Below are positions 11,031 to 31,699 of a stretch of 32,000 bases of DNA, one piece after another (position 1 is the first letter of the stretch; each line of letters opens with the position of its first letter). The stretch comes from Acaryochloris marina MBIC11017 (lineage in GTDB: Bacteria > Cyanobacteriota > Cyanobacteriia > Thermosynechococcales > Thermosynechococcaceae). The stretch is taken from the NCBI RefSeq assembly GCF_000018105.1, contig NC_009925.1:1650001-1682000 (forward strand), in the 5' to 3' direction. Below the pieces are notes generated by a model. That model was not told the origin of the DNA and did not search any database. It saw only the letters and a list, made by a program, of their open reading frames with translations. The position numbers and the translations under genes were made by a program.

Positions 11031-11054
11031 TAGATGGCCTCCTATTTGTCACGG

Positions 11055-11282
11055 TCATCCAGAGCAATGGGGATATAAAAGTTCGAGCAGCCACAGCATC
11101 GCTATATCTGATTTAATGCTGTTGGCATGGACGAGTTGAGGTTTACCCCATACTGTCCCAAAATCCTTTGCAATCAAAGATGACCCCAAGATTACCCTAT
11201 GCCAACATGCCCCACTCTGCAAATTAAGAACCGCTAAATTCTGGCTGCTTTCTGTTAGGCTGGACAACAGCAAAAATGTCAT
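11055..11282 (-). CDS. Small ORF immediately upstream of ggpS on the same strand; positional analogue of ggpR (speculative)
   Basis: 75-aa ORF filling the ggpS-gghA divergent region. In Synechocystis, a small ORF (ssl3076, ggpR) at the equivalent position modulates ggpS expression. I cannot assess sequence similarity here. Confidence 0.25.
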   Translation of the reverse strand: MTFLLLSSLTESSQNLAVLNLQSGACWHRVILGSSLIAKDFGTVWGKPQLVHANSIKSDIAMLWLLELLYPHCSG

Positions 11283-11298
11283 TCACGTCGCAAAAATT

Positions 11299-13818: not shown

Positions 13819-13835
13819 ACCCTTCGAGGAAGATC

Positions 13836-18800: not shown

Positions 18801-19920
18801 TGGGTTGGACAGAATGGGAAGAAATTAATACCGGACTCCCTGGCTCTAATTTTGGTTGGCCTTACCTCGAAGGCCCCAACCCAACGGGGGGTATCAGGAT
18901 TTGTCCTCAGCCATTTCCTTCTACAACAATGGCAACCGAAATAATCCCGGAGACACAGCCGCCATTTTTCCGCTCCTATCCCGTACCCATGGAGCACCGG
19001 ATAATGCCAGAGCCATTACCGTAGGCGATTTTTACAATAGCAACACATTGGTGTTTGGAGATGTGAACAATGGCACCCTTTATGCCGCGACATTCGATAG
19101 TAATCGCCAAATTTCGAACGTCCAAGTCTTTGACTCCAATATTCCGTTTGTGGTGGATATGAAGACGGGACCGGACGGCCGACTCTATGGGGTCGATCTG
19201 GTCTCTGGGGAAATCCTGAAATGGGAGCCGGTGACGCTTCTTCCATCCCCACAACCCAATTTATCGGCATCCTTCAATAATTTTGCTGACCTATCTTCTT
19301 TAAATCTCAATGGCAGTGCATCAGGAGCCAATAGTCGACTCCGATTAACACCTGCCAGTGGCAACCGAGCGGGGAGTGCCTTTTTCAATCAGGCTTTTCA
19401 AGTGGGTGGGAATACCAGCTTCTCCACCCAATTTCAGTTTCAAATTACGGGTAGCCAGGGAACCAATGGTGCCGATGGTTTTAGCTTGGTTCTGCAAAAT
19501 AGCCCTGCAGGAAGCAATGCTGTGGGCCGCTTTGGTGGAGACATCGGCTATGGAGGTATCACCAGGAGTATCGCCATTGAGTTTGATACCTTCAATAATG
19601 GCCCGATGGACCTCAATAGCAACCATTTATCAATCTTGAGCAATGGTATTACCGATGCTCCGTTGGCCTCGGTTAATGCTCCCTTTGATCTGAATAATGG
19701 CGATACCCTGACTGCTTGGGTGGACTATAACGGTACAACCAATCTTCTGCAGGTATACCTGGCAAACAGTACCATTCAACCCAGTACTGCAGTATTATCT
19801 GCCAATGTGGATTTGGCCGGACTTTTAGGCAACCAGGCGTTTATCGGATTTACGGCTGGGACAGGGGGCCTCGTGAACAACCATGAGATTCTGACCTGGT
19901 CCTTTAGCAGTACGGTCTAG
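15881..19920 (+). pseudogene. Giant multidomain carbohydrate-binding protein, split by a 1-nt frameshift in a G6 run at 18886-18891 (genuine or a sequencing artefact)
   Basis: ORFs 15881-19024 and 18856-19920 are two halves of one gene. GWPYLEGPNPTGG (frame 1) continues as YQDLSSAISFYNN... (frame 2) inside the same beta-propeller domain.
Domains, N to C:
- DUF4347 (VAFIDAEL...IHIISHGSQGSVQLGN...FYGCN, ~15920-16330).
- Two modules with H-type-lectin-like patterning (VRVRNVTSNSFEVRIDEW; NISNTGFDLRLQE, ~16400-17200).
- Two Calx-beta domains (~17213-17905; DFxxxxGxLxFxxGExxKTFTIPIIDD).
- PQQ-dependent sugar (glucose/sorbosone) dehydrogenase-type propeller (~17920-19240).
- L-type (legume-like) lectin domain (~19255-19917; FSTQFQFQI..GADGFSLVLQN..IAIEFDTFNN..FIGFTAGTGG). 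Confidence 0.8.
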
Positions 19921-19937
19921 CACTACCCTCTAGATTC

Positions 19938-21221
19938 CTACTGATGACGGCCTTGGGCAATTGCCTGAAAACACTGAATATATTGGGTATGCCCTTCTGG
20001 GAACACCACATTCAGCGTTAGAGGATCGTCTGTATCCCGATCATCCCCAGGTCCCGTCACCACTCGATGGGATACCTGGGACCCTGCGGGAGAATCAAGT
20101 ATGTGCTCTAGCTGCAAGGGTTTACGGTTTTTGACCTCACCACCACTGCTATCAACATAAACGACAACGTTATTCGTCTTAAATTCTTGCCCCAAGGATT
20201 GAATTAGGTGTAAAAAGTTGCGATCGCTTCCTCCCCGCTGAAACCGCAATTCTCCCTGCTCCTCGATTGCCTTACTGGTGACCGTATCACCCACCCCAAT
20301 GAGAGTTGGCATTTGCCCTGAATCAAATTTTTCTTTGACTAAATCCACCAGCTCGGCATGGGACGGTGGGGCCTGACGGGCATTGAAGTCTGCCCCCAAA
20401 GGGTATTGTCCCGTTCGTTGATGATAATAGCGATTTAAAATCGCCAGCACTCCCGCTTCTTTGATGCCGCCCTGCAACATAAATTGGAAATCCGTGGTCC
20501 CTGCTTCTTCAGGAGTCGCTGGCTGCAAAATTTCATTTCCCTGGGAATCTTTCCCGAGGTTGGGCGCGTAATGCACAAAAAAGGATTGTCCTAATCCTTG
20601 ATCTTGGGCTTGGGTCAATAGCTCCGCCGTCAGCGTTTGCATCTCTTGCTGCAGCCGAGCATATACCTCAGTTCTGTCTGCCAGCAGATCGTAGAAGACA
20701 TTTAAATTGGCCGTGGGAGAGACGGGATTGTCTAATACAGCAGCCTGGATACAGGGCTGAATTTGGGAACTATCTTCAGCCAGGGTTTGAAAAAACTGTT
20801 GCAACCGCTGACTAATTTGCTCAGGCACTGCTGCCAAAAACGCTAACTCCTGGTCGCTCACCCCCGGATGGGAGACTGAGCCAAATCGATCTTGCCATTG
20901 CACCCCTCCCGCTGCGAGGCCGGGTAAATATAGACCTTCTTGAACAACGGTTTCGGCATCAAATGTTTTCTCAACAATGCGATTGACCCCGCGATTACCG
21001 ATATGCTCACCATTGGTGAGGACATAAAAATGTCCATCTAGCTGGCGTGCCGCTCGGACATAGGCTGGATCAAGGGTACGGGTCAGGGGATCTTTCACTA
21101 ACCCCATACACACCCCATCTAAATCTTGAATGATTAATAGATTGTTTTGCCGCTGGCCAAGGTCAATCAAAGCACCATGGTCTAAGGACCAGGCTTGCTC
21201 AGACAAAGATACGTTAGACAT
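19938..21221 (-). CDS. stpA: Glucosylglycerol-phosphate phosphatase (StpA/GgpP)
   Basis: 427 aa. The N-terminal third (SLDHGA...LLIIQDLDGVCM...FYVLTNGEH-G-RGV--IVE..QEGLYLPGLAAGGVQWQDR-G-VSHPGV) matches my recollection of Synechocystis StpA (slr0746). Its size is similar (~420 aa). Confidence 0.75.
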   Translation of the reverse strand: MSNVSLSEQAWSLDHGALIDLGQRQNNLLIIQDLDGVCMGLVKDPLTRTLDPAYVRAARQLDGHFYVLTNGEHIGNRGVNRIVEKTFDAETVVQEGLYLPGLAAGGVQWQDRFGSVSHPGVSDQELAFLAAVPEQISQRLQQFFQTLAEDSSQIQPCIQAAVLDNPVSPTANLNVFYDLLADRTEVYARLQQEMQTLTAELLTQAQDQGLGQSFFVHYAPNLGKDSQGNEILQPATPEEAGTTDFQFMLQGGIKEAGVLAILNRYYHQRTGQYPLGADFNARQAPPSHAELVDLVKEKFDSGQMPTLIGVGDTVTSKAIEEQGELRFQRGGSDRNFLHLIQSLGQEFKTNNVVVYVDSSGGEVKNRKPLQLEHILDSPAGSQVSHRVVTGPGDDRDTDDPLTLNVVFPEGHTQYIQCFQAIAQGRHQ

Positions 21222-21269
21222 GGTGGGTAGATGAAATCACAACCGCTAGAAATGCTTTAGCTGCTGTCA

Positions 21270-22883
21270 TTAAGCCGTTTTAGCTGGAATTTGTTCTGGC
21301 TGAGACGACTCTTCTACCGGTTTGACCACCACCCGAGGATGATTAGCCAAATGTACGGCTAACTGCGACTCAATTTCCTCCCGGACAATTTGCCGGTATT
21401 CCATAAAGTGTTCAATAAACGCAGAAGCAGACAGATACCGAGTCAGAACCTGCGGATTCTTTTGGATGATCCGGAACAAGTTAATCCAAAATTTCCAGCG
21501 CGTCTTTCGCACTACGCCTTGGCGCCAAGCCAAGGTAGATAAGGCTCGAATATCAACCCAGCTCACCTTAACGGAGCTCTTACCCGACCCCCCATACTTG
21601 GGACGAATATTCATACTCATAAAGTGACGGAAGGTGCGATCCAGATATTTCACCGGATCGTAAATATTACAGAAGGCCTCGACATATTCATTGGCAATTT
21701 CATCGATGGGACGAGTCGGCACATAGTTCATCAATGAGGTTTGATTACCCGTGCCTTCTTGACCTTGGATAAGACGACCTTCTTTTTCTAGGCGATGCCA
21801 AAGCGCTGTATTGGGCAAGGCTTGCAACATGCTAAACAGGGCAATGGGAATGTTCGTCTTTTCGACGAAACGGGTAATGCGATCGCCTGCTCCCTTCTTT
21901 TCTCCATCAAACCCAATAATGAACCCAGCCATGATCCGCAGCCCTTTCTCAGACATGGTATCGATGGATTCGCTAAGGGAGTCACGGGTATTCTGGAACT
22001 TTTTGGTTACCTTTAAGCTGTCTTCATCCGGGGTTTCAATCCCCAAAAACACGCTGTTAAAGTTGCACTCGATCATCAGATCCATCAATTCCTCATCCTG
22101 AGCCAAATCGACGGAAGCCTCTGTAGCAAAGGTAAAGGGGTAATTTTTCTCCGCAATCCATTCCCGCAACTCAGCTAGCAATAGCTTCACATTCCGCTTA
22201 TTGCCAATAAAGTTGTCATCGACCATAAACACAGAGCCACGCCACCCTAGCTCACACAACCGATCGAGCTCAGCAATGAGCTGCTGGGGGGTTTTAGTCC
22301 TAGGCTTACGCCCATAGAGGACGATAATGTCGCAAAATTCACATTGAAAGGGACATCCCCGGGAAAACTGCACCGACATATTGTCGTAAGCCGGAAATTT
22401 CAGCAGGTCAAAGCGAGGAATGGGGGTCTCAGTCACCGCAGGTTTCTCGGTCGCACGATAGACACCGCTTTCATCGCCCCGCTCTATCGCTTCGATAAAC
22501 ATGGGCAGGGTGATTTCCCCTTCGTCCAAGATCAAGTAGTCTGCACCAACCGCCTGCAAATCTTCAGGAACAGATGTAGCAAAGGGTCCACCCACCGCAA
22601 CTTTCTTCCCGCGGCGATGGGATTCTCCCACAAGGTTCAGCATGTCTTCTTTCTGAACAATCATGCCGGATAGAATCACCATCTCAGCCCAGTCCCAATC
22701 TGACTCAGGCACGGCTTCAACATTGCGGTCAATTAGCCGAAACTCCCACTCCTGGGGCAAAATTGCGGCTACCGTCACTAACCCCAAAGGCGGCAATAAT
22801 GCTTTTTTGTCAACTAAGGACAAGGTTTTCTCAAATGACCAAAAACTTTTTGGAAAGAGGGGGTAAATTAGTAAAACTCGCAT
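21270..22883 (-). CDS. Class B (B12-binding) radical SAM protein with DUF4070-type C-terminus
   Basis: 537 aa. The N-terminal cobalamin-binding-like Rossmann region is RVLLIYP...PPLGLVTVAAILP. The radical SAM cluster motif is SRGCPFQCEFCDI. The long C-terminal extension is typical of the DUF4070 group, which shares its architecture with hopanoid C-2 methylase HpnP. Confidence 0.85.
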   Translation of the reverse strand: MRVLLIYPLFPKSFWSFEKTLSLVDKKALLPPLGLVTVAAILPQEWEFRLIDRNVEAVPESDWDWAEMVILSGMIVQKEDMLNLVGESHRRGKKVAVGGPFATSVPEDLQAVGADYLILDEGEITLPMFIEAIERGDESGVYRATEKPAVTETPIPRFDLLKFPAYDNMSVQFSRGCPFQCEFCDIIVLYGRKPRTKTPQQLIAELDRLCELGWRGSVFMVDDNFIGNKRNVKLLLAELREWIAEKNYPFTFATEASVDLAQDEELMDLMIECNFNSVFLGIETPDEDSLKVTKKFQNTRDSLSESIDTMSEKGLRIMAGFIIGFDGEKKGAGDRITRFVEKTNIPIALFSMLQALPNTALWHRLEKEGRLIQGQEGTGNQTSLMNYVPTRPIDEIANEYVEAFCNIYDPVKYLDRTFRHFMSMNIRPKYGGSGKSSVKVSWVDIRALSTLAWRQGVVRKTRWKFWINLFRIIQKNPQVLTRYLSASAFIEHFMEYRQIVREEIESQLAVHLANHPRVVVKPVEESSQPEQIPAKTA

Positions 22884-23032
22884 AGAGAAGCCACATCTCC
22901 TAATCCAAATACCTCAAATCTTACCGCTAATTCACTTTTCTTGCTGAGAGTAGATTTAACCTTAGACATTGACTCAATTTAATCTTAATTTCTCAGATTT
23001 GTTAGGTGCATTGTCAATTTTGTCAACTAGGG

Positions 23033-23584
23033 TTATGCCTTTAAACCCAACTGTCTACGCACCCATGTCGCCCCCATAAATAGTAGCGGTGTCACAATTG
23101 CTCCTGTTAGGACCAAATGCAGGGGAAAGTGAAAATAGAAAAACCATAGGATCAGCACCCCATAGGTGGAATCCATATGATCAATTACATAGAAAACTTT
23201 GTTGTTTTCATCTCCAGGGGGAATCTCCAACCGTCGTTTTATAAAGGAATTAGGCAACTCGGATAGATTAAAAATAAACCCAACTAACAAGCCATATTCG
23301 ATAAAATTGAATTGAGAGAGTTGAATCTGCAGACCTGAGTTTGTCAAAAATTGCGCCTCTAAGACTTGCAGAAAAAAGGTACTAACCACACAGGTTAATG
23401 GTAAGCTAATCAATCCTCTCCAGCGTTTATTAGCGCCGAACCATTGTGTCTGGATCGGTATATTTACCAGCTCAAAAGGTTTCGTCTTCCAAAGAAACGC
23501 CTCTAAAACTCCGGCAATGAATAGCCCCACCCCAAGCCATAGAATATTTAAAGTGTCTTGGGCAAAATGAGTCCAGAAAAGCAT
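23033..23584 (-). CDS. CarS-like (CDP-archaeol synthase family, PF01864-type) integral membrane cytidylyltransferase
   Basis: Contains GANKRWRGLISLPL (compare GKNKTWRG) and ELPNSFIKRRLEIPPGDENNKVFYVIDHMDSTYGVL (compare GDLxxSFIKRRLGIxxGxxxPxxDQLDF), with about 5 TM helices and a CarS-like size. I placed the start at the internal Met (MLFWTH...). The ORF is open up to 23716, but that would overlap the divergent kinase gene. Confidence 0.65.
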   Translation of the reverse strand: MLFWTHFAQDTLNILWLGVGLFIAGVLEAFLWKTKPFELVNIPIQTQWFGANKRWRGLISLPLTCVVSTFFLQVLEAQFLTNSGLQIQLSQFNFIEYGLLVGFIFNLSELPNSFIKRRLEIPPGDENNKVFYVIDHMDSTYGVLILWFFYFHFPLHLVLTGAIVTPLLFMGATWVRRQLGLKA

Positions 23585-23668
23585 TGTTTTCGCAATAGAT
23601 TGAACTTGGATATTGTCTTCGAGGAACAACTTTTTTTCGTCAGCGACGCCGAGCCCATCGCTGTCGAT

Positions 23669-24988
23669 ATGCGGGCTAGAGGTTGGTTGACGACCTCCAG
23701 TTTGTCCTGGTTCCACGCAGGTCTAAGGCACACATTAGCCTTTGATGACGTGGTCGGCGTCAAGCCGACTGATCAGCAATATCCCCAAGGACTCGTTGGG
23801 TTTATTCTGTGTGCCTATCCTGCTCCTAGGACTTTACCCCACCGCCGACAGTTACGGGAATATGAGTTTGTCTGTGCCACGGAGCAGATGCGCTCCCAGT
23901 GGATGAACGCCATTCGCCAAGCGTTACAGGGCCACCCCATCCAACCCCAGCAGGCCGTCAGGCCCCGCCATCTCCAAGTCTTAGTCAATCCCAAGGGAGG
24001 ACGGCGACAAGCCAAACAAGTCTTTCAATCCATTCAGCCCATTTTAGAAGATGCCCATTGCCAGGTGAGCATTTTGGAAACCCAGGGGGGCGAAGGAACG
24101 ATCCAGGCCGTGCGAGATTTCGACTTATCAGCGATAGATGGATTTGTCGTTGTCGGTGGCGATGGAACGGTTTATGAGCTGATTAACGGGCTGATGACCC
24201 ATGGGGATGCGGAGGTTGCGATCGCAAAACCCATCGGCATCATCCCAGCCGGTACCGGCAACGGTCTGGGAAAAACCATTCTCGACCTATCCCAAGAAAC
24301 CTACGATCCGAGTAATGCCGCGTTTATCATCGCCAAAGGCCAGTACCAGCCTATTAATTTAGGCGTCGTCAAACAGGATGGCAAAGAATATTACAGCATT
24401 CTCTCCTTAGCTTGGGCTTTGATTAGCGATATCGATATTAAGTCCAACAAGCTTCGTTTTCTCAAGTTCCTAGGCTCCTTACGTAGTGATCTCTATGCTT
24501 TTCTCAGCATCTTGGCCCTCCGCAGTTATCGAGGTCGGATTTCCTTTCTACCTGCCCCAGACTGGCCACCTAGCCCCGATACCCCTCAGCCAGACCTCCT
24601 AGCCGAACCGCAGCCAGCAGACATCGAGACCTCTACAGCTTCAGCTTGGCAAGTGCTTGAGGGTGAGTTTATTGCCCTTTGGGTGATGAACGTCGCTTGG
24701 GCCACCCATAGCGTTTTGGCAGCCCCACACGCTCGATTAGCCGATGGCTACATGGATGTCTTAATCATTCGTAAAGGAATTACCCGCTGGCGTTTATTAA
24801 CCGCATTTCTGAAAATTGCCACAGGCGAACATCTCCTGATTCCAGAGATGGAATACTACAAGGTGCGCTGTCTCCACTTAGAACCTCTAAGTTCTGAAGG
24901 CTTACTGGCTGTTGACGGAGAACAAATCAAATACCGCTCCGTTGAAATGAATGTTTTGGCAAACCATGCCCAAGTTTTTTGCCGTTAA
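23669..24988 (+). CDS. DAGK-catalytic-domain lipid kinase of the sphingosine/ceramide-kinase type, with an N-terminal PH-like region
   Basis: Contains LQVLVNPKGGRRQA, VVVGGDGTVYELINGLM and IGIIPAGTGNGLGKT. It also has the SphK-type insert LSLAWALISDIDIKSNKLRFLKFLGSLRSDLYAFLSILALRSYRGRISFLP (compare eukaryotic S-SWG-IADIDIESEKYRW-G--RF) and C-terminal VDGEQI. The start is set at MRARGW (23669). The ORF is open from 23558. Confidence 0.75.
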   Translation: MRARGWLTTSSLSWFHAGLRHTLAFDDVVGVKPTDQQYPQGLVGFILCAYPAPRTLPHRRQLREYEFVCATEQMRSQWMNAIRQALQGHPIQPQQAVRPRHLQVLVNPKGGRRQAKQVFQSIQPILEDAHCQVSILETQGGEGTIQAVRDFDLSAIDGFVVVGGDGTVYELINGLMTHGDAEVAIAKPIGIIPAGTGNGLGKTILDLSQETYDPSNAAFIIAKGQYQPINLGVVKQDGKEYYSILSLAWALISDIDIKSNKLRFLKFLGSLRSDLYAFLSILALRSYRGRISFLPAPDWPPSPDTPQPDLLAEPQPADIETSTASAWQVLEGEFIALWVMNVAWATHSVLAAPHARLADGYMDVLIIRKGITRWRLLTAFLKIATGEHLLIPEMEYYKVRCLHLEPLSSEGLLAVDGEQIKYRSVEMNVLANHAQVFCR

Positions 24989-25100
24989 TCTGCAGGCTAA
25001 CCAGCCGATGTATACTCTTCCCCAACTGCCCGAGCTGAGCTAGGGCTGAGAACATCCCTGTACGACGTATTAGGGATTCAGTGGAGTCATTATCCTCAAT

Positions 25101-27335
25101 ATGAAGTCAATTTCCCTATCGACTGGAGTTTTCGTGGCCATCATGGGTTTGAGCCTGCCAACCCATGCCGAAACCGCCCCATTCTCAGATTCACTCCTCA
25201 CCCCTACTTCATGTGACACATGCCATCTCAGCCCATCTGAGCTAAGAACTGCCGACTTTAGTTTTAGCCCCAAGCCAATCGTTCAGATTAAGCAAAACTC
25301 CAGCAGTTTGCATCTTTCGAGTCCCAAGGAAGCTGCTCCCGCCGTAAATGGGCAAACCACTGCGGCTCAACCCAAAGATCTGGCCCCCTCTAGTGCCGCA
25401 AAGGCAGGCTCAGAAAAGACAACAGACGGCACACTGCTCTCATCCCAGACACCATTACCATCCCGCTCAACCGCCTTAATCCCGCAGCAAACTCTCATTT
25501 CTCAAGCCACAGCTCCGCAGGATGTTACGTCTCCCCTCCCCATCTCGACGAGTGCCGCAGATCTAGCCCAAGTCGACTCTGTCCCTCCAGCCGAAGCGGA
25601 TAGTGATGCTGAAGACAGCACCGAAGAAAGCGAAGAAGCTCCAGCGACTCGTTTTAGCCCCTTAGCCAACCAACAATTTCAGCAACCTACCGCAATTCAC
25701 CTGCCCAAAGGAACAGTGGCCCTGAGCCTCTACAATCGACTGTTCTTTTTGCCCGGTACTGAAGCAGCTAGTGGTACGGCAGCCTATCCAAATTTTGGCG
25801 TTACCTGGGGATTAACAGACAGTACCGAACTGGACCTCACCCTACAGGTGGTAGATACGGGTACCCCCGACCGATTGGGGCCTTTCGGCGTTGTTAGACG
25901 GGTTAATAACCGAGATTTAACCCTATCCGTTAAGCAAAGGCTATGGGATAACACCGACGATACGTTGGCCTTTAGTGGTTCTTTTTCCCTAGCGGTTCCC
26001 CTAACAAATCGTACGTTTGAATTTACCCCCGGCGGGATTGAGCAAGAAGACAACAGTTTAATCCCAGCTCTACAATTTCCGTTCACGGCTACCGTTAGCG
26101 ATCGCTGGCAGTTTACCCTTTCCCCCACCATTGCCTTCTTCCCCGATAGCAATGCTGTCTTTATCCCCCGTCCCCCCCTCGCCAATCCAGGCTCGTTTGG
26201 CACCACCTTGGGACTCAGTGGGGCGATTTCCTACCAAGTCCATCCTCGGATCACCCTCTGGGGCGATGCCTTTGTACCCTTTACGGGCAACAACAGTTTC
26301 AACCGGGATACAGGGCTACCCGCTAAATCCATTGCCTATAATGCGGGTCTGCGATATTTTCTTAATCCCAGTCTGGGACTCGATATCTTTGCCTCTAATA
26401 CCTTTGGCAGCAAGGGACCGTTGGCCTTAACGGCGGATCGAGACTTAACTGCGTTGGGATTGAGAGTTATATCTTTACCGAGTCTCTTTGCCTCCAACCG
26501 CCGGATTGCGGACAGTTTTAACCGTGATCAGGACGGTCAAGATTCACCCAATACAACTGATGGCTTGGCCTTTTTTGATGGCGGGACCGTTCCTAGTCAA
26601 CGGTTTTTGTTCCATTTACAGGGGGGTGGACAGGGCATTCAAACTGCCCTGCGCTACGGAATTGTCAAAGATTTTGAGCTATTTGCCTATTTGGACTATA
26701 TCTCGGGTGAGGTGGACGAATCAGAGCAAGGCTTTGGTGTAAAACTGCGATTGCTAAACCAAGATGAAGCAGCACCATTGACTGCCAGTGCCGCTGTGAC
26801 CGTGGGACTCACCAACAATATCTTCGACAACTTTGATAACAACAATCGCAATGGCTTGTTCCGACAAGGAGCGCCTAAAGACTTTCCGCTAATTTTTAGA
26901 ACGGACAGTCCCGAAGGCAGGCGGTTTGTGGTCACCCTATCCCTACCCTTGCATTACAAAGTCAATGATCAACTGGCCTTTTGGTTTACCCCCATTGCAG
27001 GATTTGTGCAGCGAGATGGTTTAGAGCTAGGCGGCTTTAACGTCGGCGGCTCCGTTGAGGTTATTCAAGACCTGAGTCTAGTCGGCGAATTGGGAGCCAA
27101 TTTCTTGGGTGAAGGGAATGCTTTTATCGGCGACACCTTAGCGGATCGGATTCCCTGGTCTGTGGCCGTCCGTTGGAATCCCCGCAGTATTATTGGCGGG
27201 GATGAATCCAACCCGAATCAACCCAATGTTGAATTCTTTGTCACGAATCGTGTGGGCTCATCCACCTGGCACCAACTAAGAGTCAGAGATCAAAACGAAA
27301 TTACCGTTGGCGCTGGCATTTCGATTCCGTTTTAA
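25101..27335 (+). CDS. Secreted protein: signal peptide, ~170-aa P/S/T/A/Q-rich acidic linker, and two tandem homologous beta-barrel-like modules; probable outer-membrane protein
   Basis: The signal peptide is MKSISLSTGVFVAIMGLSLPTHA|E. It has alternating-hydrophobic beta-strand patterning and the terminal residues ...VGAGISIPF (C-terminal Phe, an OMP signature). The modules at ~25650-26480 and ~26550-27332 share ordered motifs: WQFTLSPTIAF / LAFWFTPIAGF and LDIFASNTFGS / VEFFVTNRVGS. Confidence 0.6.
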   Translation: MKSISLSTGVFVAIMGLSLPTHAETAPFSDSLLTPTSCDTCHLSPSELRTADFSFSPKPIVQIKQNSSSLHLSSPKEAAPAVNGQTTAAQPKDLAPSSAAKAGSEKTTDGTLLSSQTPLPSRSTALIPQQTLISQATAPQDVTSPLPISTSAADLAQVDSVPPAEADSDAEDSTEESEEAPATRFSPLANQQFQQPTAIHLPKGTVALSLYNRLFFLPGTEAASGTAAYPNFGVTWGLTDSTELDLTLQVVDTGTPDRLGPFGVVRRVNNRDLTLSVKQRLWDNTDDTLAFSGSFSLAVPLTNRTFEFTPGGIEQEDNSLIPALQFPFTATVSDRWQFTLSPTIAFFPDSNAVFIPRPPLANPGSFGTTLGLSGAISYQVHPRITLWGDAFVPFTGNNSFNRDTGLPAKSIAYNAGLRYFLNPSLGLDIFASNTFGSKGPLALTADRDLTALGLRVISLPSLFASNRRIADSFNRDQDGQDSPNTTDGLAFFDGGTVPSQRFLFHLQGGGQGIQTALRYGIVKDFELFAYLDYISGEVDESEQGFGVKLRLLNQDEAAPLTASAAVTVGLTNNIFDNFDNNNRNGLFRQGAPKDFPLIFRTDSPEGRRFVVTLSLPLHYKVNDQLAFWFTPIAGFVQRDGLELGGFNVGGSVEVIQDLSLVGELGANFLGEGNAFIGDTLADRIPWSVAVRWNPRSIIGGDESNPNQPNVEFFVTNRVGSSTWHQLRVRDQNEITVGAGISIPF

Positions 27336-27423
27336 GGGGTGGGAAAGGGCTACATCGATGCTTTTGATTTTTCGCCAGAGGACATGTTAGGGTCGCTGTT
27401 GCCTGAGTTTACGGGGAACAGCC

Positions 27424-28059
27424 ATGCCCAACGAGTCCACACCTGTTCAGGATTCTATTGAAAGCCCAGAAGAGACAACGATTACGGTGCCTCTGTCTTT
27501 GCTGGACCGGATTGTGCAGTTTTTCACCATTAAACTGGCCAAGTCTCTTGCTCACTTCACCTGGATTACCCCCAATCGAGTCACCTGGGTGTCTGCAGGG
27601 ATTGGCGGTCCTCTGACGGGATGGCTGATTATTCAGGAGCAGTTCTGGCTGGCAACGGCATTAGTGGTGGTCAGTGGCTTGATGGACGGATTGGATGGGG
27701 ACATCGCCCGAGAACGCAATCTGACTTCGATTGAAGGGGGTATTTTAGACAGCGTTTTAGATCGTTATGTCGATTTCTTCTTGATTGCAGCACTTATTTT
27801 GGTCAACCCCACTGAACATTTACTCGTGGGCCTATTTGCCCTAATGGGAACCACAATGGTGCCTTACATTCGGGCTAGAAGTGAGGTCGCCGGTAAAAGT
27901 TCGATTGCCAGTATTGGCAGCCGAGCGACCCGCATCGTCTTGATTATTTTGGGATTGCTCACCCAACAGCTGTTTATTTTGCTGATTGCATTAGCCGTTA
28001 TTTCCAATATTGCTGCAGTTCACCGATTTTGGTTTGCGCTGATTCCTGCCGAAGATTAG
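27424..28059 (+). CDS. CDP-alcohol phosphatidyltransferase family protein (non-PgsA type)
   Basis: The complete motif D-x2-DG-x2-AR-x8-G-x3-D-x3-D is present in MDGLDGDIARERNLTSIEGGILDSVLDRYVD (27685-27762). It has an ITPNRVT entry helix, about 5-6 TM helices and a hydrophilic ~25-aa N-terminus. Confidence 0.9.
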   Translation: MPNESTPVQDSIESPEETTITVPLSLLDRIVQFFTIKLAKSLAHFTWITPNRVTWVSAGIGGPLTGWLIIQEQFWLATALVVVSGLMDGLDGDIARERNLTSIEGGILDSVLDRYVDFFLIAALILVNPTEHLLVGLFALMGTTMVPYIRARSEVAGKSSIASIGSRATRIVLIILGLLTQQLFILLIALAVISNIAAVHRFWFALIPAED

Positions 28060-28134
28060 CCCACTCCTTCTCCATGCCTGTTCTTCAGAGAGACAAACTC
28101 GTTATAGTGATTACCTAATGCATGCGTTTCTTCC

Positions 28135-29040
28135 ATGCTCTCAGGTAGTCAGAAGGCAGACCCCATGGCGAATACAGAAATAAGAGAACGCTTGCCAGAG
28201 TGGCTACGCCGCCCGATTGGCAAGGCCAGTGAGCTATCCACCGTCCAGCAAATCGTCAAACGCCATAATATCCACACTATTTGTGAAGAAGGCCGATGTC
28301 CTAATCGGGGCGAATGCTATGCCCAAAAAACGGCCACGTTTTTACTCATGGGACCTGTCTGCACCCGGGCCTGTTCGTTTTGCCAGGTTGATAAGGGCCA
28401 TACCCCCCAACCCTTGAATGAACAAGAACCTCAGAAGGTCGCTGATTCTGTACGGTTACTGGGTTTGAAATATGTAGTACTCACTTCAGTGGCTCGAGAT
28501 GATTTACCCGATCAAGGGGCGGGATGGTTTGCCGCAACCATGGCCGCCATTCGAACCGTCAGCCCCCATACCGATATTGAAGTGCTAACCCCTGATTTTC
28601 GAGGCGATCTCAACTTGATTGCCACCGTTGTTGCTGCCCGACCCGTTTGCTACAACCACAACCTGGAAACGGTTCGACGCCTTCAAGGACCAGTACGACG
28701 AGGAGCAAAATATGAGCGTTCGCTCCAGGTACTAGCCACCGTTAAGGAACTTGCACCTAAAAATGATGTCATACCTAGTATTGCTACCAAATCTGGTCTA
28801 ATGCTGGGATTGGGAGAAACGGAAACTGAAATCATCGAAACGATGGAGGACCTAAGGTCAGTGGGATGCGACCGCATCACCTTAGGTCAATATATGCGCC
28901 CGTCCCTCAACCATCTCCCGGTCCAGAAATACTGGCATCCCGAGGAGTTTGATCGCCTAGGTGAGATTGCTCGCTCTCTCGGATTTAGCCACGTCCGGTC
29001 TGGCCCTTTAGTCAGAAGTTCATACCACGCTGGAGAGTAA
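28135..29040 (+). CDS. lipA: Lipoyl synthase
   Basis: Auxiliary cluster [12 protein letters not shown], radical SAM cluster [10 protein letters not shown], and C-terminal RSSYHA. The start could instead be the second Met at 28165. Confidence 0.95.
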
Positions 29041-29066
29041 GCTCCCGACTATCGCTGGAAGCATAG

Positions 29067-29666
29067 ATGAAGGATGTTACCGCTCAAACTAACGCCATTG
29101 CTGATTGTCTCAAAACCTTGGAGCAAGTCTCCGCAATGGTTCACGGCCTAACCGAACAGGCTAATCCTCTGACCGAGGCGCTGGATATGGCCCAATTTAA
29201 TCGTGGTGTCGGAAAAGCCCTGACTCATCTGTTTGAGTTAGAAGCAGATCTATACGATTTAGAACCTGACTATACCCCCGAACATCGACGCCCCTCTTTA
29301 GCGCCAATCAATTTAGGAGCTGTTTTAAATTACTTATCCACCCCCAATAAACCCGCACAATATTCTGCACAACGACAGCTTGCTAGCCATATGACAGATG
29401 TCGTTGCGGCTGAATTCACGGAAGCCTGTGCCCAGGGGCAAGGGTTAGAATTCGCTCAGAAATGGTGGGAATCACAGAATAAGCCTTTTATTCCAGTCAT
29501 TCAGACCTACCGGGATCTCCACCACGCCAGGAAATATGTGCGTTATCACAGTGCAGCACTGCTAGGGGATATCTTCAACATCACCCTATGGGATGACGGC
29601 TCACAAGAGGTATTACTGAACGACGCTCAAGACTGGTTTACTCAATGGTTACAAACACAAGCCTAA
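29067..29666 (+). CDS. Hypothetical protein
   Basis: 199-aa ORF beginning 27 nt after lipA. No overlapping alternative frame and no motif recognised. Confidence 0.55.
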   Translation: MKDVTAQTNAIADCLKTLEQVSAMVHGLTEQANPLTEALDMAQFNRGVGKALTHLFELEADLYDLEPDYTPEHRRPSLAPINLGAVLNYLSTPNKPAQYSAQRQLASHMTDVVAAEFTEACAQGQGLEFAQKWWESQNKPFIPVIQTYRDLHHARKYVRYHSAALLGDIFNITLWDDGSQEVLLNDAQDWFTQWLQTQA

Positions 29667-30367: not shown

Positions 30368-31699
30368 ATGGCCAATCAGCCCTCCGTCGCCGTTGCTCAT
30401 CTCGGCTGTGAAAAAAATCGTGTTGACACTGAACATATGCTGGGATTGCTGGTGGAAGCAGGCTATCCCGTCGACAGCGATGAAGCCTTTGCCGACTACG
30501 TGATCGTTAACACCTGCAGCTTTATCCAAGCAGCCCGGGAAGAGTCTGTACGCACCCTAGTCGAACTAGCCGAAGCCAACAAAAAAATTGTGATTACAGG
30601 CTGCATGGCTCAGCATTTCCAAGAGGAATTGCTAGAAGAACTCCCCGAAGCCGTTGCCCTCGTCGGTACCGGAGACTATCACAAAATCGTAGATGTGATT
30701 CAGCGCGCCGAAGCGGGAGAGCGGGTGAAAGAAGTCTCACCTGAACCGACCTATATCGCCGATGAAACCGTTCCTCGGTATCGCACCACCACCGAAGGCA
30801 CTGCCTATGTCCGCATTGCTGAAGGCTGTGACTATGGCTGTGCCTTTTGCATCATTCCCCATTTGCGTGGCAAACAGCGGTCGCGCTCGATCGAGTCCAT
30901 CGTGGCGGAAGCCCAACAATTAGCCGCCGAAGGCGTGCAGGAGCTAATTTTAATTTCCCAAATTACCACTAACTACGGCATTGACCTCTACGGCAAACCC
31001 CAGCTCGCTGAACTACTTCGGGCTCTAGGCGAAGTTGATGTCCCTTGGATTCGCATGCATTACGCCTATCCCACGGGCTTAACCCCAGAAGTAATGGCGG
31101 CCATTCAAGAAACGGATAACGTTCTGCCCTACTTAGATTTGCCTTTGCAACATTCCCACCCAGAAGTCTTGCGGGCTATGAATCGACCTTGGCAAGGTCA
31201 AGTGAACGATCAAATTATTGAGAAAATCAAAACTGCCTTGCCGGATGCGGTTCTCCGCACCACATTTATTGTGGGATTCCCCGGAGAAACAGACGAGCAT
31301 TTTGAGCATCTCTGTGAGTTTGTCCAGCGGCATGAATTCGATCACGTAGGCGTGTTTACCTTCTCGCCAGAAGAAGGCACCCCCGCGTTTGATTTGCCCA
31401 ATCAATTGCCTCAAGACGTGATGGATGCACGACGCGATCGCTTGATGGCATTGCAACAACCCATCTCCTGGCAACAAAACCAGCAAGAAGTTGGCAAAAC
31501 GGTACAAGTCTTAATCGAGCAAGAACATCCTGGCTCTGGTCAGCTCATCGGTCGCTCGCCTCGGTTCTCTGCCGATGTGGACGGTCTCGTCTATATCGAT
31601 CCTGGTGAGGCTCCATCACCTCGTTTAGGCAGCTTAACCCCTGTCCAGATTACAGATGCAGATGCCTACGACCTCCAGGGACAACTGGTGAGCCAATAA
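30368..31699 (+). CDS. rimO: Ribosomal protein S12 methylthiotransferase
   Basis: 443 aa. The MTTase N-domain has [10 protein letters not shown]...NTCSFI...GC, the radical SAM motif is [14 protein letters not shown], and there is a C-terminal TRAM-like domain. The size and N-terminus fit RimO rather than MiaB. Confidence 0.85.

What the first reader, a model, noticed from the sequence alone, without database searches (positions are those of the whole stretch)
21270..28059. Divergent cluster of non-housekeeping lipid enzymes: candidate undescribed CDP-activated lipid pathway
Five adjacent genes sit around one ~85-bp divergent promoter region.
- Minus strand: CarS-like cytidylyltransferase, then B12/DUF4070 radical SAM (and then stpA).
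- Plus strand: sphingosine-kinase-like lipid kinase, then a duplicated beta-barrel outer-membrane protein, then a CDP-alcohol phosphotransferase.

The three transferases have consecutive chemistries. The kinase would convert lipid-OH to lipid-phosphate. The CarS-type enzyme would convert lipid-phosphate plus CTP to CDP-lipid. The CDP-alcohol transferase would convert CDP-lipid plus an alcohol to a phosphodiester lipid.

By sequence, none looks like the canonical housekeeping enzyme (CdsA, PgsA or DgkA). Class B radical SAM enzymes have precedent as lipid C-methylases (HpnP). The co-encoded outer-membrane protein suggests the product may be destined for the outer membrane. I know of no characterised cyanobacterial pathway with this gene set. 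The functional link is inferred from domain content and adjacency only.
Basis: partly seen in the sequence, partly recalled or inferred. Interest (0 to 1): 0.75.

Follow-up and report, generated by a model that had tools for sequence, protein, structure and literature searches.

The report
Cyanobacterial kinase–cytidylyltransferase–phosphotransferase lipid head-group module
Three of the five flagged genes form a conserved cyanobacterial module that probably activates a sphingolipid-like lipid with CTP and attaches inositol phosphate, a route not described for any organism and in a phylum where no sphingolipid enzyme has been characterised.

Summary
All five genes exist, and four families pass Pfam thresholds. 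The "outer-membrane protein" has no family match.

**The real unit is a trio:**
- a PH-like + sphingosine-kinase-like kinase (23606-24988, +)
- a CarS-like putative cytidylyltransferase (23033-23584, -)
- a CDP-alcohol phosphotransferase of the inositol-phosphate-accepting clade (27424-28059, +)

**Evidence for coupling:**
- Kinase and CarS-like genes sit head-to-head in 13 of 52 species genomes, from about 10 cyanobacterial lineages.
- A CDP-alcohol phosphotransferase lies beside them in 9, from two unrelated subfamilies.
- CarS-like/phosphotransferase fusion proteins exist.
- One Acaryochloris genome has lost or broken all three while keeping its neighbours.

**Wider context:** elsewhere the module joins myo-inositol-1-phosphate synthase, fatty-acyl-AMP ligase and a serine-palmitoyltransferase-like long-chain-base cluster.

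**Best reading:** lipid-OH → lipid-phosphate → CDP-lipid → inositol-phosphoryl lipid, with ceramide or a sphingoid base as the probable lipid.

**Not part of the core:**
- The radical SAM gene is widespread and only loosely linked.
- The secreted protein is Acaryochloris-specific.
- stpA belongs to the glucosylglycerol genes.
- The "85-bp promoter" is mostly kinase coding sequence.

**Closest analogue:** Caulobacter cpgABC, which uses a different cytidylyltransferase fold. Nothing here is shown biochemically.

The parts
23606..24988 (+). Lipid kinase. It has an N-terminal PH-like domain plus a sphingosine-kinase-type catalytic domain (DAGK_cat + YegS_C). The start is probably TTG 23606 (460 aa); ATG 23567 is the alternative.
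   Evidence: - Pfam PF00781 90.3 bits, PF19279 40.1 bits, weak PH match E = 0.0026.
- Human SphK1 E = 1.4e-50 over residues 97-432.
- GGDGT, PAGTGNGL and LSLAWALISDIDIKS align to the equivalent SphK1 blocks.
- The N-terminus is conserved across the family.
23033..23584 (-). CarS-like integral-membrane protein of 183 aa. Proposed role: CTP:lipid-phosphate cytidylyltransferase.
   Evidence: - PF01864 43.5 bits; NCBIfam CarS equivalog only 36 bits against a cut-off of 148.
- Tight cyanobacterial subfamily with 80% mean column identity.
- Relatives are fused to CDP-OH_P_transf, AMP-binding or PlsC domains and give weak CdsA-family hits.
- No PDB sequence or fold match.
23585..23605 (.). 21-bp head-to-head spacer between the CarS-like start and the kinase start. 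Any promoters must extend into the coding regions.
   Evidence: - Sequence read; start-codon assignment.
- The tight divergent arrangement is conserved in 13 loci.
- The consensus promoter scan found nothing here.
27424..28059 (+). CDP-alcohol phosphotransferase of the inositol-phosphate-accepting clade (211 aa).
   Evidence: - PF01066 61.1 bits.
- Best NCBIfam models: archaetidylinositol-phosphate synthase 117.8 bits (cut-off 180), DIPP synthase 80.7, PIP synthase 70.6, against PgsA about 18.
- Best PDB matches are A. fulgidus IPCT/DIPPS (58 bits), AF2299, M. tuberculosis PgsA1 and PIPS.
- Motif DGLDGDIAR...GGILDSVLDR is present.
21270..22883 (-). Class B (B12-binding) radical SAM protein with DUF4070. 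It is a possible accessory enzyme, not a core member.
   Evidence: - Pfam PF02310, PF04055, PF13282; CPFQCEFC cluster motif.
- No NCBIfam equivalog is reached.
- Orthologues lie near CarS-like genes only in Acaryochloris, L034 and L052.
- Of 80 metagenome loci, 1 has the trio and 5 have AOS, FAAL or FA-hydroxylase genes.
25101..27335 (+). Secreted, outer-membrane-like protein of 744 aa and unknown family. It is an Acaryochloris-specific insertion between the kinase and the phosphotransferase.
   Evidence: - No Pfam, NCBIfam or PDB match.
- Present only in Acaryochloris loci, and intact in L057 where the trio has decayed.

Best explanation
The kinase (23606-24988), the CarS-like protein (23033-23584) and the CDP-alcohol phosphotransferase (27424-28059) form one head-group-attachment module for a membrane lipid.

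**Proposed steps (all inferred, none assayed)**
1. The sphingosine-kinase-like enzyme phosphorylates the primary hydroxyl of a sphingolipid-type lipid. The substrate would be ceramide or a free long-chain base made by a FAAL / ACP / alpha-oxoamine-synthase / ketoreductase set.
2. The CarS-like membrane enzyme condenses that lipid phosphate with CTP to give a CDP-lipid ("CDP-ceramide").
3. The CDP-alcohol phosphotransferase displaces CMP with myo-inositol 1-phosphate. In lineages that carry the other subfamily, the acceptor may be free inositol.
4. The product is an inositol-phosphoryl lipid. In some lineages it is probably dephosphorylated and glycosylated afterwards.

**What is shown and what is not**
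- Shown: family memberships, conserved synteny, domain fusions, co-decay and genome co-occurrence.
- Inferred: every catalytic step, the lipid identity and the head group.

**Genes outside the module**
- The radical SAM gene is at most a lipid-tailoring accessory.
- The secreted protein and stpA are not part of the module.
For: **Coupling of the trio**
- Kinase and CarS-like genes are adjacent and divergent in 13 of 52 species genomes from about 10 lineages: Acaryochloris, a Leptolyngbyaceae genome, two Oscillatoria, an Oscillatoriales MAG, Lyngbya, Limnospira, a Pseudanabaenales MAG, Jaaginema and a Xenococcaceae genome.
- The window-type phosphotransferase lies beside them in L008-L010, L027, L035 and L048.
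- A different PF01066 subfamily takes the same slot in L016, L052 and L053. It shares only the catalytic motif.
- In Limnospira and Lyngbya the trio is a three-gene island among housekeeping genes.
- Fusion proteins exist: CarS-like+CDP-OH_P_transf, CDP-OH_P_transf+CarS-like, and AMP-binding+CDP-OH_P_transf+CarS-like.
- In Acaryochloris bin.137 (L057) all three have decayed:
  - the kinase has lost residues about 102-345;
  - the CarS-like gene is split and more diverged;
  - the phosphotransferase is deleted;
  - the radical SAM (91% identity), secreted-protein (84%) and lipA (91%) genes remain intact.
- Where the CarS-like gene stands alone, the kinase is elsewhere in the same genome. 11 of 15 named kinase hits match CarS-bearing genomes.

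**Lipid identity**
- The kinase matches human SphK1 at 175 bits, against 61 for AGK and 47 for DgkB. The substrate-binding block is conserved.
- The kinase/CarS pair adjoins a long-chain-base-type gene set in L016, L027 and L150: SDR, alpha-oxoamine synthase, ACP, desaturases, acyl-CoA-dehydrogenase-like, FAAL and fatty-acid hydroxylase. L044 has the same set next to the CarS-like gene. L031 and L053 carry a FAAL-ACP-AOS fusion.
- The best PDB matches of the alpha-oxoamine synthase are serine palmitoyltransferases.

**Head group**
- The phosphotransferase is closest to inositol-phosphate-accepting enzymes.
- myo-Inositol-1-phosphate synthase lies within 10 kb of the CarS-like gene in 22 of 52 genomes, and FAAL in 32.

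**Precedent**
- Caulobacter cpgABC combines a SphK-related ceramide kinase, a putative cytidylyltransferase and a PgsA-like transferase to make ceramide phosphoglycerate. An NDP-activated ceramide has been proposed there (PMC11324152, PMC9393093).
Against: - No biochemical or lipidomic data exist for any member.
- In the window's own genome, no long-chain-base genes and no inositol-phosphate synthase lie within the 32-kb window or the flanks of six Acaryochloris-type loci. I could not scan the rest of that genome, so pathway completeness in Acaryochloris is unknown.
- The CarS-like assignment rests on HMM evidence only.
  - The profile finds no PDB sequence.
  - A confident AlphaFold2 model (pLDDT 83) finds no PDB fold at E < 1.
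- The alpha-oxoamine synthase scores slightly better on the NCBIfam BioF model than on the SPT models, and reaches none of the cut-offs.
- Some CarS-like relatives are fused to a PlsC acyltransferase, which hints at glycerolipid substrates in part of the family.
- The alpha-oxoamine synthase family is much more widespread than the trio, so the two are separable.
- In Pleurocapsales the genes are scattered.
Confidence: 0.5

Rival explanations
1. **Glycerolipid version.** The kinase is a diacylglycerol kinase. The CarS-like enzyme is an alternative CDP-diacylglycerol synthase. The phosphotransferase is a phosphatidylinositol-phosphate synthase. The product would be ordinary phosphatidylinositol, as in mycobacteria and Bacteroides.
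For: - The phosphotransferase resembles AIPS, PIPS and DIPPS.
- myo-Inositol-1-phosphate synthase is the second most frequent neighbour of the CarS-like gene.
- CarS-like+PlsC acyltransferase fusions and weak CdsA-family hits occur in relatives.
- No long-chain-base genes were seen near the Acaryochloris cluster.
Against: - The kinase is far closer to sphingosine kinase 1 (175 bits) than to DgkB (47 bits) or acylglycerol kinase (61 bits).
- It carries a ceramide-kinase-like PH-type N-domain.
- The module repeatedly adjoins SPT-like / ACP / ketoreductase / desaturase / hydroxylase genes.
- From general knowledge, cyanobacteria already make CDP-diacylglycerol with CdsA for phosphatidylglycerol, so a dedicated kinase plus second synthase would be redundant.
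Confidence: 0.2
2. **Five-gene pathway.** The radical SAM enzyme C-methylates the same lipid, and the co-encoded outer-membrane protein exports or receives it in the outer membrane.
For: - Radical SAM orthologues (61-66% identity) lie near CarS-like genes in two further lineages, L034 and L052.
- In metagenome loci they lie directly downstream of FAAL-AOS(-SDR-GT4) genes (L093, L130) or near fatty-acid hydroxylase genes (L103, L117, L121).
- All Acaryochloris loci keep the five genes together.
Against: - Only 1 of 80 radical SAM loci carries the trio. The orthologue group is far more widespread than the CarS-like family.
- Both the radical SAM gene and the secreted-protein gene stay intact where the trio has decayed.
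- The secreted protein is found only in Acaryochloris, and its fold is undetermined.
- No NCBIfam methylase equivalog is reached.
Confidence: 0.1
3. **Other lipid alcohol.** The kinase and the CarS-like enzyme activate an isoprenoid or fatty alcohol (for example phytol, a polyprenol or an alkanol). This would echo the isoprenoid substrate of archaeal CarS and give a prenyl- or alkyl-phospho-inositol.
For: - The CarS family's only characterised substrate is an isoprenoid ether lipid (general knowledge).
- FAAL is the most frequent neighbour and is fused to the phosphotransferase and CarS-like domains in some proteins.
- A polyprenyl synthase lies about 2 kb away in Limnospira and Lyngbya.
Against: - The kinase's substrate-binding block matches sphingosine kinase.
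- The polyprenyl synthase sits among housekeeping genes.
- No reductase that would make fatty alcohols is conserved in these clusters.
Confidence: 0.07
4. **No shared pathway.** The genes are neighbours by chance or by shared regulation only.
For: - In Pleurocapsales the genes are dispersed.
- The promoter and terminator scans show nothing above shuffled sequence.
Against: - The divergent pair is conserved across about 10 lineages.
- Two unrelated phosphotransferase subfamilies are recruited to the same slot.
- There are domain fusions and joint decay of the trio.
Confidence: 0.03

Closest known systems
Caulobacter crescentus cpgABC ceramide (di)phosphoglycerate pathway: CpgB/CC_1160, CpgC/CC_1161, CpgA/CC_1159
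   Same: - It uses the same three-part logic on a sphingolipid.
  - CpgB is a sphingosine-kinase-related kinase and makes ceramide-1-phosphate. This step is shown biochemically.
  - CpgC is a protein with a CDP-diacylglycerol-synthase-type domain, required for the next step.
  - CpgA is a PgsA-like CDP-alcohol phosphotransferase.
- The genes cluster with spt, ACP and acyl-ACP synthetase genes.
- An NDP-activated ceramide has been proposed there (PMC11324152, PMC9393093, PMC12275187).
   Different: - CpgC carries a Tam41/Mmp37-type domain (IPR015222) and is predicted to be cytosolic. The cyanobacterial enzyme is a 183-aa integral-membrane CarS-like protein. The two are analogous, not homologous.
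- The head group is phosphoglycerate, with CDP-glycerate supplied by CpgD, not inositol phosphate.
- The activities of CpgC and CpgA are themselves unproven.
Archaeal CDP-archaeol synthase (CarS) followed by archaetidylinositol-phosphate synthase (AIPS)
   Same: - The enzyme families act in the same order: a PF01864 cytidylyltransferase activates a lipid phosphate, then a PF01066 enzyme adds inositol 1-phosphate.
- The window phosphotransferase's best NCBIfam model is AIPS.
   Different: - The cyanobacterial proteins miss both equivalog cut-offs: 36 against 148 bits, and 118 against 180 bits.
- There are no ether-lipid genes.
- A dedicated SphK-like kinase supplies the lipid phosphate.
- No sequence or fold match to solved structures was found.
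Mycobacterial / Bacteroides inositol-lipid pathway (MIPS, PIP synthase, PIP phosphatase; in Bacteroides then the AUR1-like IPC synthase BT_1522)
   Same: - A myo-inositol-1-phosphate synthase is clustered with a CDP-alcohol phosphotransferase that accepts inositol phosphate.
- The end product in Bacteroides is an inositol phosphoryl (dihydro)ceramide (PMC9246714).
   Different: - In Bacteroides, ceramide receives phosphoinositol from phosphatidylinositol through an AUR1-type transferase.
- That pathway has no lipid kinase and no dedicated cytidylyltransferase.
- Here the lipid itself would be CDP-activated.
- NCBIfam PIPS models are not reached: 70.6 against 170 bits, and 56 against 350 bits.
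Eukaryotic sphingosine kinase / ceramide kinase
   Same: - The catalytic domain aligns end to end with human SphK1 (E = 1.4e-50), including the nucleotide-binding and sphingoid-binding blocks.
- The N-terminal PH-like domain matches the ceramide kinase architecture.
   Different: - In eukaryotes the phosphorylated products are signals or catabolic intermediates, not biosynthetic intermediates for head-group attachment.
- Substrate preference is untested here.

Membership tests
CDP-archaeol synthase family (Pfam PF01864 CarS-like) | Scores above the Pfam gathering threshold across most of the model | tested here: met
   43.5 bits against a cut-off of 22, model positions 10-171 of 175. Relatives found with the profile also hit PF01864.
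CDP-archaeol synthase family (Pfam PF01864 CarS-like) | Bona fide CarS orthologue (NCBIfam equivalog NF003114) | tested here: not met
   36.3 bits against a cut-off of 148. Ten sampled relatives score 40-71 bits. This is a separate CarS-like clade.
CDP-archaeol synthase family (Pfam PF01864 CarS-like) | Sequence or fold similarity to a solved CarS or CdsA structure | tested here: inconclusive
   The profile finds no PDB sequence at E <= 1. The AlphaFold2 model (pLDDT 83, pTM 0.80) has no Foldseek PDB hit at E < 1. Small helical membrane proteins are hard cases for this comparison.
CDP-archaeol synthase family (Pfam PF01864 CarS-like) | CTP-dependent formation of a CDP-lipid | not testable with these tools
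   Only indirect support: fusions to CDP-alcohol phosphotransferase domains and weak PF01148 hits in relatives.
Sphingosine / ceramide kinase branch of DAGK_cat kinases | DAGK_cat catalytic domain plus C-terminal beta-sandwich | tested here: met
   PF00781 90.3 bits and PF19279 40.1 bits.
Sphingosine / ceramide kinase branch of DAGK_cat kinases | Closer to SphK than to bacterial DgkB/YegS, with the lipid-binding block conserved | tested here: met
   SphK1 175 bits against AGK 61 and DgkB 47. LSLAWALISDIDIKS...LRSYRGRISFLP aligns to LSLAWGFIADVDLES...LRTYRGRLAYLP. No NCBIfam DgkB or YegS cut-off is reached.
Sphingosine / ceramide kinase branch of DAGK_cat kinases | Phosphorylates a sphingoid base or ceramide | not testable with these tools
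   Needs an enzyme assay.
CDP-alcohol phosphotransferases, inositol-phosphate-accepting clade (AIPS / PIPS / DIPPS) | PF01066 domain with the D-G-x2-A-R...G-x3-D-x3-D motif | tested here: met
   61.1 bits. DGLDGDIARERNLTSIEGGILDSVLDR can be read in the sequence and in the alignment.
CDP-alcohol phosphotransferases, inositol-phosphate-accepting clade (AIPS / PIPS / DIPPS) | Reaches an equivalog cut-off for AIPS, PIPS or DIPPS | tested here: not met
   AIPS 117.8 against 180, PIPS 70.6 against 170, DIPPS 80.7 against 580. These are still the best-scoring models by far, and the best PDB hits all accept inositol phosphate.
Class B (cobalamin-dependent) radical SAM enzymes | B12-binding domain plus radical SAM core with CxxxCxxC | tested here: met
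   PF02310 44.6 bits, PF04055 69.7 bits, PF13282 168 bits. CPFQCEFC is in the sequence.
Class B (cobalamin-dependent) radical SAM enzymes | Orthologue of a known lipid methylase (HpnP/HpnR) or another characterised member | tested here: not met
   HpnR 62.7 against 650. All 22 NCBIfam hits are far below their cut-offs.
Outer-membrane beta-barrel proteins | Match to a known barrel family or a confident barrel model | tested here: inconclusive
   No Pfam, NCBIfam or PDB match. AlphaFold2 single-sequence pLDDT is 30. Only the signal-peptide-like N-terminus and the C-terminal ...ISIPF are visible.
Caulobacter-type cpgABC phosphosphingolipid system | SphK-related kinase plus CDP-alcohol phosphotransferase in one locus | tested here: met
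   for the window. Literature.
Caulobacter-type cpgABC phosphosphingolipid system | Tam41/Mmp37-type CpgC protein | tested here: not met
   The Pfam scan of the window proteins returned no Tam41-type family. The slot is filled by a PF01864 protein. CpgC's domain is taken from the supplement of PMC11324152.
Caulobacter-type cpgABC phosphosphingolipid system | Clustering with long-chain-base (SPT / ACP / reductase) genes | tested here: inconclusive
   Met in L016, L027, L031, L053, L150 and partly L054. Not met in the window or other Acaryochloris loci.

The most novel reading that the evidence does not exclude
A scattered set of cyanobacteria would make inositol-phosphoryl sphingolipids through a CDP-ceramide or CDP-sphingoid-base intermediate. 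The set includes Acaryochloris, many Pleurocapsales, Limnospira/Arthrospira, Lyngbya and Oscillatoria.

- The intermediate would be formed by a bacterial CarS-like cytidylyltransferase acting after a sphingosine-kinase-like enzyme.
- This would be a third, mechanistically distinct route to inositol phosphoryl ceramide. The known routes use the AUR1-type transferase, as in eukaryotes and Bacteroides.
- It would give the first genetic basis for sphingolipids in cyanobacteria.
- It would be the first biosynthetic (not signalling) role for a SphK-type kinase outside the Caulobacter pathway.
Probability: 0.4. Interest if true: 0.85.

Novelty: new variant of a known kind. Interest (0 to 1): 0.72.

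Why it matters
- **Gap in knowledge.** Cyanobacteria are textbook glycerolipid organisms (MGDG, DGDG, SQDG, PG). A 2022 study states that no cyanobacterial sphingolipid enzyme has been characterised and that only two sphingolipids have ever been reported from the phylum (PMC8895605).
- **A testable genetic handle.** This module and its partner genes offer a concrete way to ask whether cyanobacteria make sphingolipid-type or inositol lipids, and how. The organisms include the food cyanobacterium Limnospira/Arthrospira.
- **New chemistry.**
  - A CDP-activated ceramide or sphingoid base would be a new metabolite class. The term "CDP-ceramide" occurs in none of about 8 million papers searched.
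  - It would show that all three cytidylyltransferase folds (CdsA, Tam41, CarS) have been recruited for lipid activation in bacteria.
  - It could help resolve the still-unproven CpgC step in Caulobacter.
- **Annotation.** Databases currently label these proteins "CDP-archaeol synthase" and "diacylglycerol kinase family protein". Those names are probably misleading.

Tried and rejected
- **Fold check of the CarS-like protein.** The AlphaFold2 model is good, but Foldseek against PDB gave nothing at E < 1, and the profile found no PDB sequence. The fold is therefore unconfirmed.
- **The secreted protein.**
  - No match in Pfam, NCBIfam or PDB.
  - The self-comparison of halves was not significant.
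  - The single-sequence model was useless, with pLDDT 30.
- **Promoter and terminator scan of 19800-29200.** Fewer sites than in shuffled sequence, and none in the spacer.
- **The apparently conserved intergenic element.** Rejected as a regulatory site, because the protein alignment shows it is kinase coding sequence.
- **Whether the Acaryochloris genome has SPT-like genes.** The homologue search with the L027 alpha-oxoamine synthase was saturated: 8000 hits, with the top 120 all at 65% identity or more. None was attributable to Acaryochloris. This is not evidence of absence.
- **Context of distant CarS-like relatives (P0366, P0368, P0375).** The contigs were too short to be informative.
- **Whether CpgC is CarS-like.** Rejected from the paper's supplement; it is Tam41-type.
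- **Literature.**
  - "CDP-ceramide" returned 0 papers.
  - "CDP-archaeol synthase" plus cyanobacteria returned only passing mentions.
  - A broad Acaryochloris / inositol / ceramide query returned nothing relevant.
- **stpA as part of the cluster.** Rejected. It sits with ggpS-like, GHL5 and glpK genes of glucosylglycerol metabolism.

Full report
**1. What is in the window**

The window matches the 6.4-Mb chromosome AP026075.1 (assembly GCA_024347835.1) and near-identical assemblies. Its closest relatives in the genome collection are Acaryochloris genomes.

Pfam gives these results:

| Coordinates | Strand | Pfam result |
|---|---|---|
| 19938-21221 | - | stpA, PF09506, 623 bits |
| 21270-22883 | - | B12-binding + Radical_SAM + DUF4070 |
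| 23033-23716 (long ORF) | - | PF01864 CarS-like, 43.5 bits, cut-off 22 |
| 23558-24988 (long ORF) | + | DAGK_cat 90.3 bits + YegS_C, weak PH match |
| 25101-27335 | + | no family |
| 27424-28059 | + | CDP-OH_P_transf, 61.1 bits |
| 28135-29040 | + | lipoyl synthase |

None of the three transferases reaches any NCBIfam equivalog cut-off, including those for DgkB, YegS, PgsA and PssA.

Upstream lie three glucosylglycerol genes: a GT20 ggpS-like gene, a GHL5 gene and glpK. stpA belongs with that set.

**2. Corrections to the anatomy**

- Homologues of the CarS-like protein are 179-195 aa and begin at the window's M45. The gene is therefore 23033-23584.
  - A database homologue starts MDIVFEEQLF at the position of the window's TTG 23606.
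  - The two genes are thus head-to-head with a 21-bp spacer, or an 18-bp overlap if ATG 23567 is used.
  - The block that looked like a conserved intergenic element among Acaryochloris loci encodes the first strand of the kinase's PH-like domain.
- A consensus promoter and terminator scan found nothing above shuffled sequence.
- The 744-aa protein has a signal-peptide-like N-terminus and ends in ...ISIPF. It has no Pfam, NCBIfam or PDB match.
  - Its halves are not significantly similar.
  - Its single-sequence model is uninformative.

**3. What the three transferases resemble**

- *Kinase.* It aligns over its whole catalytic region with human sphingosine kinase 1 (E = 1.4e-50, 175 bits).
  - Acylglycerol kinase scores 61 bits and DgkB 47 bits.
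  - The GGDG, PAGTGN and LSLAW..SD.D..S...LR.YRGR blocks are conserved.
- *Phosphotransferase.* It carries the DG..AR...G...D...D motif.
  - Its best models and structures all use inositol phosphate as acceptor: AIPS 117.8 bits, DIPPS 80.7, PIPS 70.6, A. fulgidus IPCT/DIPPS and M. tuberculosis PgsA1. PgsA and PssA models score about 18-27 bits.
- *CarS-like protein.* It belongs to a tight cyanobacterial subfamily with 80% mean column identity.
  - An exhaustive profile search of 1.84 billion representatives found 795 relatives at E <= 1e-3, but only 6 at E <= 1e-30.
  - Sampled relatives hit PF01864, and some also hit the CdsA family weakly. All sampled relatives fall well below the archaeal CarS equivalog cut-off.
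  - A confident AlphaFold2 model (pLDDT 83) found no PDB fold.
  - The cytidylyltransferase assignment is therefore HMM-based and contextual only.

**4. Comparative genomics: the trio is a module**

A scan of one genome per species (GTDB) with the CarS-like profile gave 52 loci, all cyanobacterial. I annotated them by tblastn and by ORF clustering.

- The kinase is adjacent and divergent to the CarS-like gene in 13 loci. These are four Acaryochloris genomes, a Leptolyngbyaceae genome, two Oscillatoria, Lyngbya, an Oscillatoriales MAG, Limnospira, a Pseudanabaenales MAG, Jaaginema and a Xenococcaceae genome. Kinase identity outside Acaryochloris is only 37-47%.
- The window-type phosphotransferase is beside them in L008-L010, L027, L035 and L048.
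- In L016, L052 and L053 the same slot holds a different PF01066 protein. It shares only the catalytic motif with the window's enzyme.
- In Limnospira and Lyngbya the trio is a compact island between rpoB / tatD / rpsT / hisD and folD.
- Fusion proteins join CarS-like and CDP-OH_P_transf domains in both orders. A further class adds an N-terminal AMP-binding domain.
- In Acaryochloris bin.137 (L057) the trio has decayed together.
  - The phosphotransferase is cleanly deleted.
  - The kinase lacks residues about 102-345.
  - The CarS-like gene is split and more diverged.
  - The radical SAM (91%), secreted-protein (84%) and lipA (91%) genes are intact.
- Where the CarS-like gene stands alone (most Pleurocapsales), the kinase is elsewhere in the same genome. 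11 of 15 named kinase hits come from genomes on the CarS list, and two Waterburya-type loci show it in unrelated contexts.

**5. What the neighbours say about substrate and head group**

The commonest neighbours of the CarS-like gene are listed below.

| Neighbour | Genomes of 52 |
|---|---|
| Fatty-acyl-AMP ligase | 32 |
| myo-Inositol-1-phosphate synthase | 22 |
| Kinase | 13 |
| GT4 glycosyltransferase | 11 |
| WecG-type transferase | 8 |

- In L027, L016 and L150 the kinase/CarS pair abuts a long-chain-base-type gene set. L044 has the same set next to the CarS-like gene. The set is:
  - a short-chain dehydrogenase;
  - an alpha-oxoamine synthase whose best PDB matches are plant LCB2a and bacterial serine palmitoyltransferases;
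  - an ACP;
  - one or two desaturases;
  - an acyl-CoA-dehydrogenase-like protein;
  - a FAAL;
  - a fatty-acid hydroxylase.
- In L031 and L053 the pair is followed by GT4, Stealth, LicD, an SDR, a FAAL-ACP-aminotransferase fusion, a FAAL and MIPS.
- One Xenococcaceae genome carries kinase / CarS / SDR on one contig and ACP-AOS on another.
- The alpha-oxoamine synthase family is much wider than the trio. It occurs in Trichodesmium, Moorena, Okeania, Chroococcidiopsis and others, often with FAAL, SDR and GT4. The long-chain-base module and the phospho-inositol module are therefore separable parts.
- Caveat: NCBIfam cannot distinguish this synthase from BioF or Kbl.
- Caveat: none of these partner genes lies in the window or in the flanks of the six Acaryochloris-type loci.

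**6. The radical SAM gene**

- Its orthologue group (60-69% identity) is abundant. A metagenome scan found at least 528 relatives.
- Of the 80 loci kept, only the Acaryochloris-like one has the trio.
- Five others place it directly after FAAL-AOS (L093), after FAAL-AOS-SDR-FAAL-GT4 (L130), or near a fatty-acid hydroxylase (L103, L117, L121). L052 has FAAL then the radical SAM gene next to the CarS-like gene.
- This is a weak, recurrent link to the lipid-core genes, not to the head-group trio. The gene also persists where the trio has decayed.

**7. Mechanism**

The best-supported model has four steps:
1. The kinase makes a lipid 1-phosphate.
2. The CarS-like enzyme makes the CDP-lipid.
3. The phosphotransferase adds inositol phosphate.
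4. Later trimming and glycosylation follow in some lineages.

Ceramide is the more natural substrate for CarS- and PIPS-type enzymes because it has two chains. A free sphingoid base, followed by FAAL-dependent N-acylation, is not excluded. All catalytic steps are inferred.

**8. Comparison with what is known**

- *Closest system.* Caulobacter cpgABC is the nearest analogue.
  - CpgB is a SphK-related ceramide kinase, and this is shown biochemically.
  - CpgC is required to convert ceramide-1-phosphate. It carries a Tam41-type CDP-DAG-synthase domain.
  - CpgA is PgsA-like.
  - The authors proposed an NDP-activated ceramide, and the CpgC and CpgA activities remain unproven.
  - The cyanobacterial module uses the same logic with a non-homologous CarS-like cytidylyltransferase and an inositol-type phosphotransferase.
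- *Bacteroides.* It makes inositol phosphoryl dihydroceramide differently, from phosphatidylinositol through an AUR1-like enzyme.
- *Literature gaps.* "CDP-ceramide" appears in no paper of the searched library. No cyanobacterial sphingolipid enzyme has been characterised.

**9. Verdict**

- The system is a new variant of a kinase / cytidylyltransferase / CDP-alcohol-phosphotransferase head-group pathway.
- It is of high interest because it makes cyanobacterial sphingolipid and inositol-lipid biosynthesis directly testable.

Noticed in passing
window 9528-15344 and 19938-21221: A glucosylglycerol (compatible-solute) gene set is split by a large secreted-protein gene. It comprises a GT20 ggpS-like gene (9528-11030, -), a GHL5 glucosylglycerol-hydrolase-like gene (11299-13818, +), an FGGY glycerol kinase (13836-15344, +) and stpA (19938-21221, -). 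stpA belongs to this set, not to the lipid genes.
   Followed up: partly
L057 6981-12310 (Acaryochloris sp. IP29b_bin.137): A natural "knockout" of the trio. The phosphotransferase is deleted, the kinase is reduced to residues 3-101 plus 346-439, and the CarS-like gene is frameshifted. The flanking radical SAM, secreted-protein and lipA genes are intact. Because this is a MAG, assembly error cannot be fully excluded for the frameshift.
   Followed up: yes
P0366, P0369, P0375, P0396, P0401, P0412, P0426: CarS-like domains occur fused to CDP-alcohol phosphotransferase domains (both orders), to AMP-binding plus CDP-alcohol phosphotransferase (about 930-970 aa), or to PlsC-type acyltransferases. 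The organisms of origin are unknown because the contigs are short.
   Followed up: partly
L016 7913-8614, L052 8179-8841, L053 7980-8651: A second CDP-alcohol phosphotransferase subfamily sits beside the kinase in place of the window type. By eye, its motif LLDEFDGRAARQFKQSSHFGAALDMVTDR, and that of the fusion protein P0366, resembles eukaryotic phosphatidylinositol synthase. That might mean free inositol is the acceptor. No PDB match was found.
   Followed up: partly
L064 (Trichodesmium erythraeum IMS101), L065 (Chroococcidiopsis), one search list: A FAAL + ACP-fused alpha-oxoamine synthase (+ SDR + GT4) gene set is widespread in cyanobacteria that lack the CarS-like gene. Examples are Trichodesmium, Moorena, Okeania, Chroococcidiopsis, Calothrix and Nostoc. 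This suggests an uncharacterised family of amino-alcohol (sphingoid-like) glycolipids. A cerebroside has been reported from Moorea producens.
   Followed up: partly
L132, L136-L140, L143-L145 (metagenome loci): In a subgroup of radical SAM orthologues (about 61-63% identity), a rimO-like methylthiotransferase gene lies about 3 kb upstream on the same strand. In the window, rimO (30368-31699) is also nearby but in a different arrangement.
   Followed up: no
window 15881-19920: A 1047-aa secreted protein (DUF4347, Calx-beta, GSDH domains) is followed by an overlapping ORF that encodes a legume-lectin-like domain protein. The overlap of 18856-19024 may reflect an alternative start or a frameshift.
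   Followed up: no
L039 and L041 (Arthrospira platensis PCC 7345): Two scaffolds each carry a CarS-like gene (62% identity) with no kinase detected nearby. The related Limnospira MAG (L048), in contrast, has the full trio. This could reflect duplication, a rearrangement or an assembly artefact.
   Followed up: no
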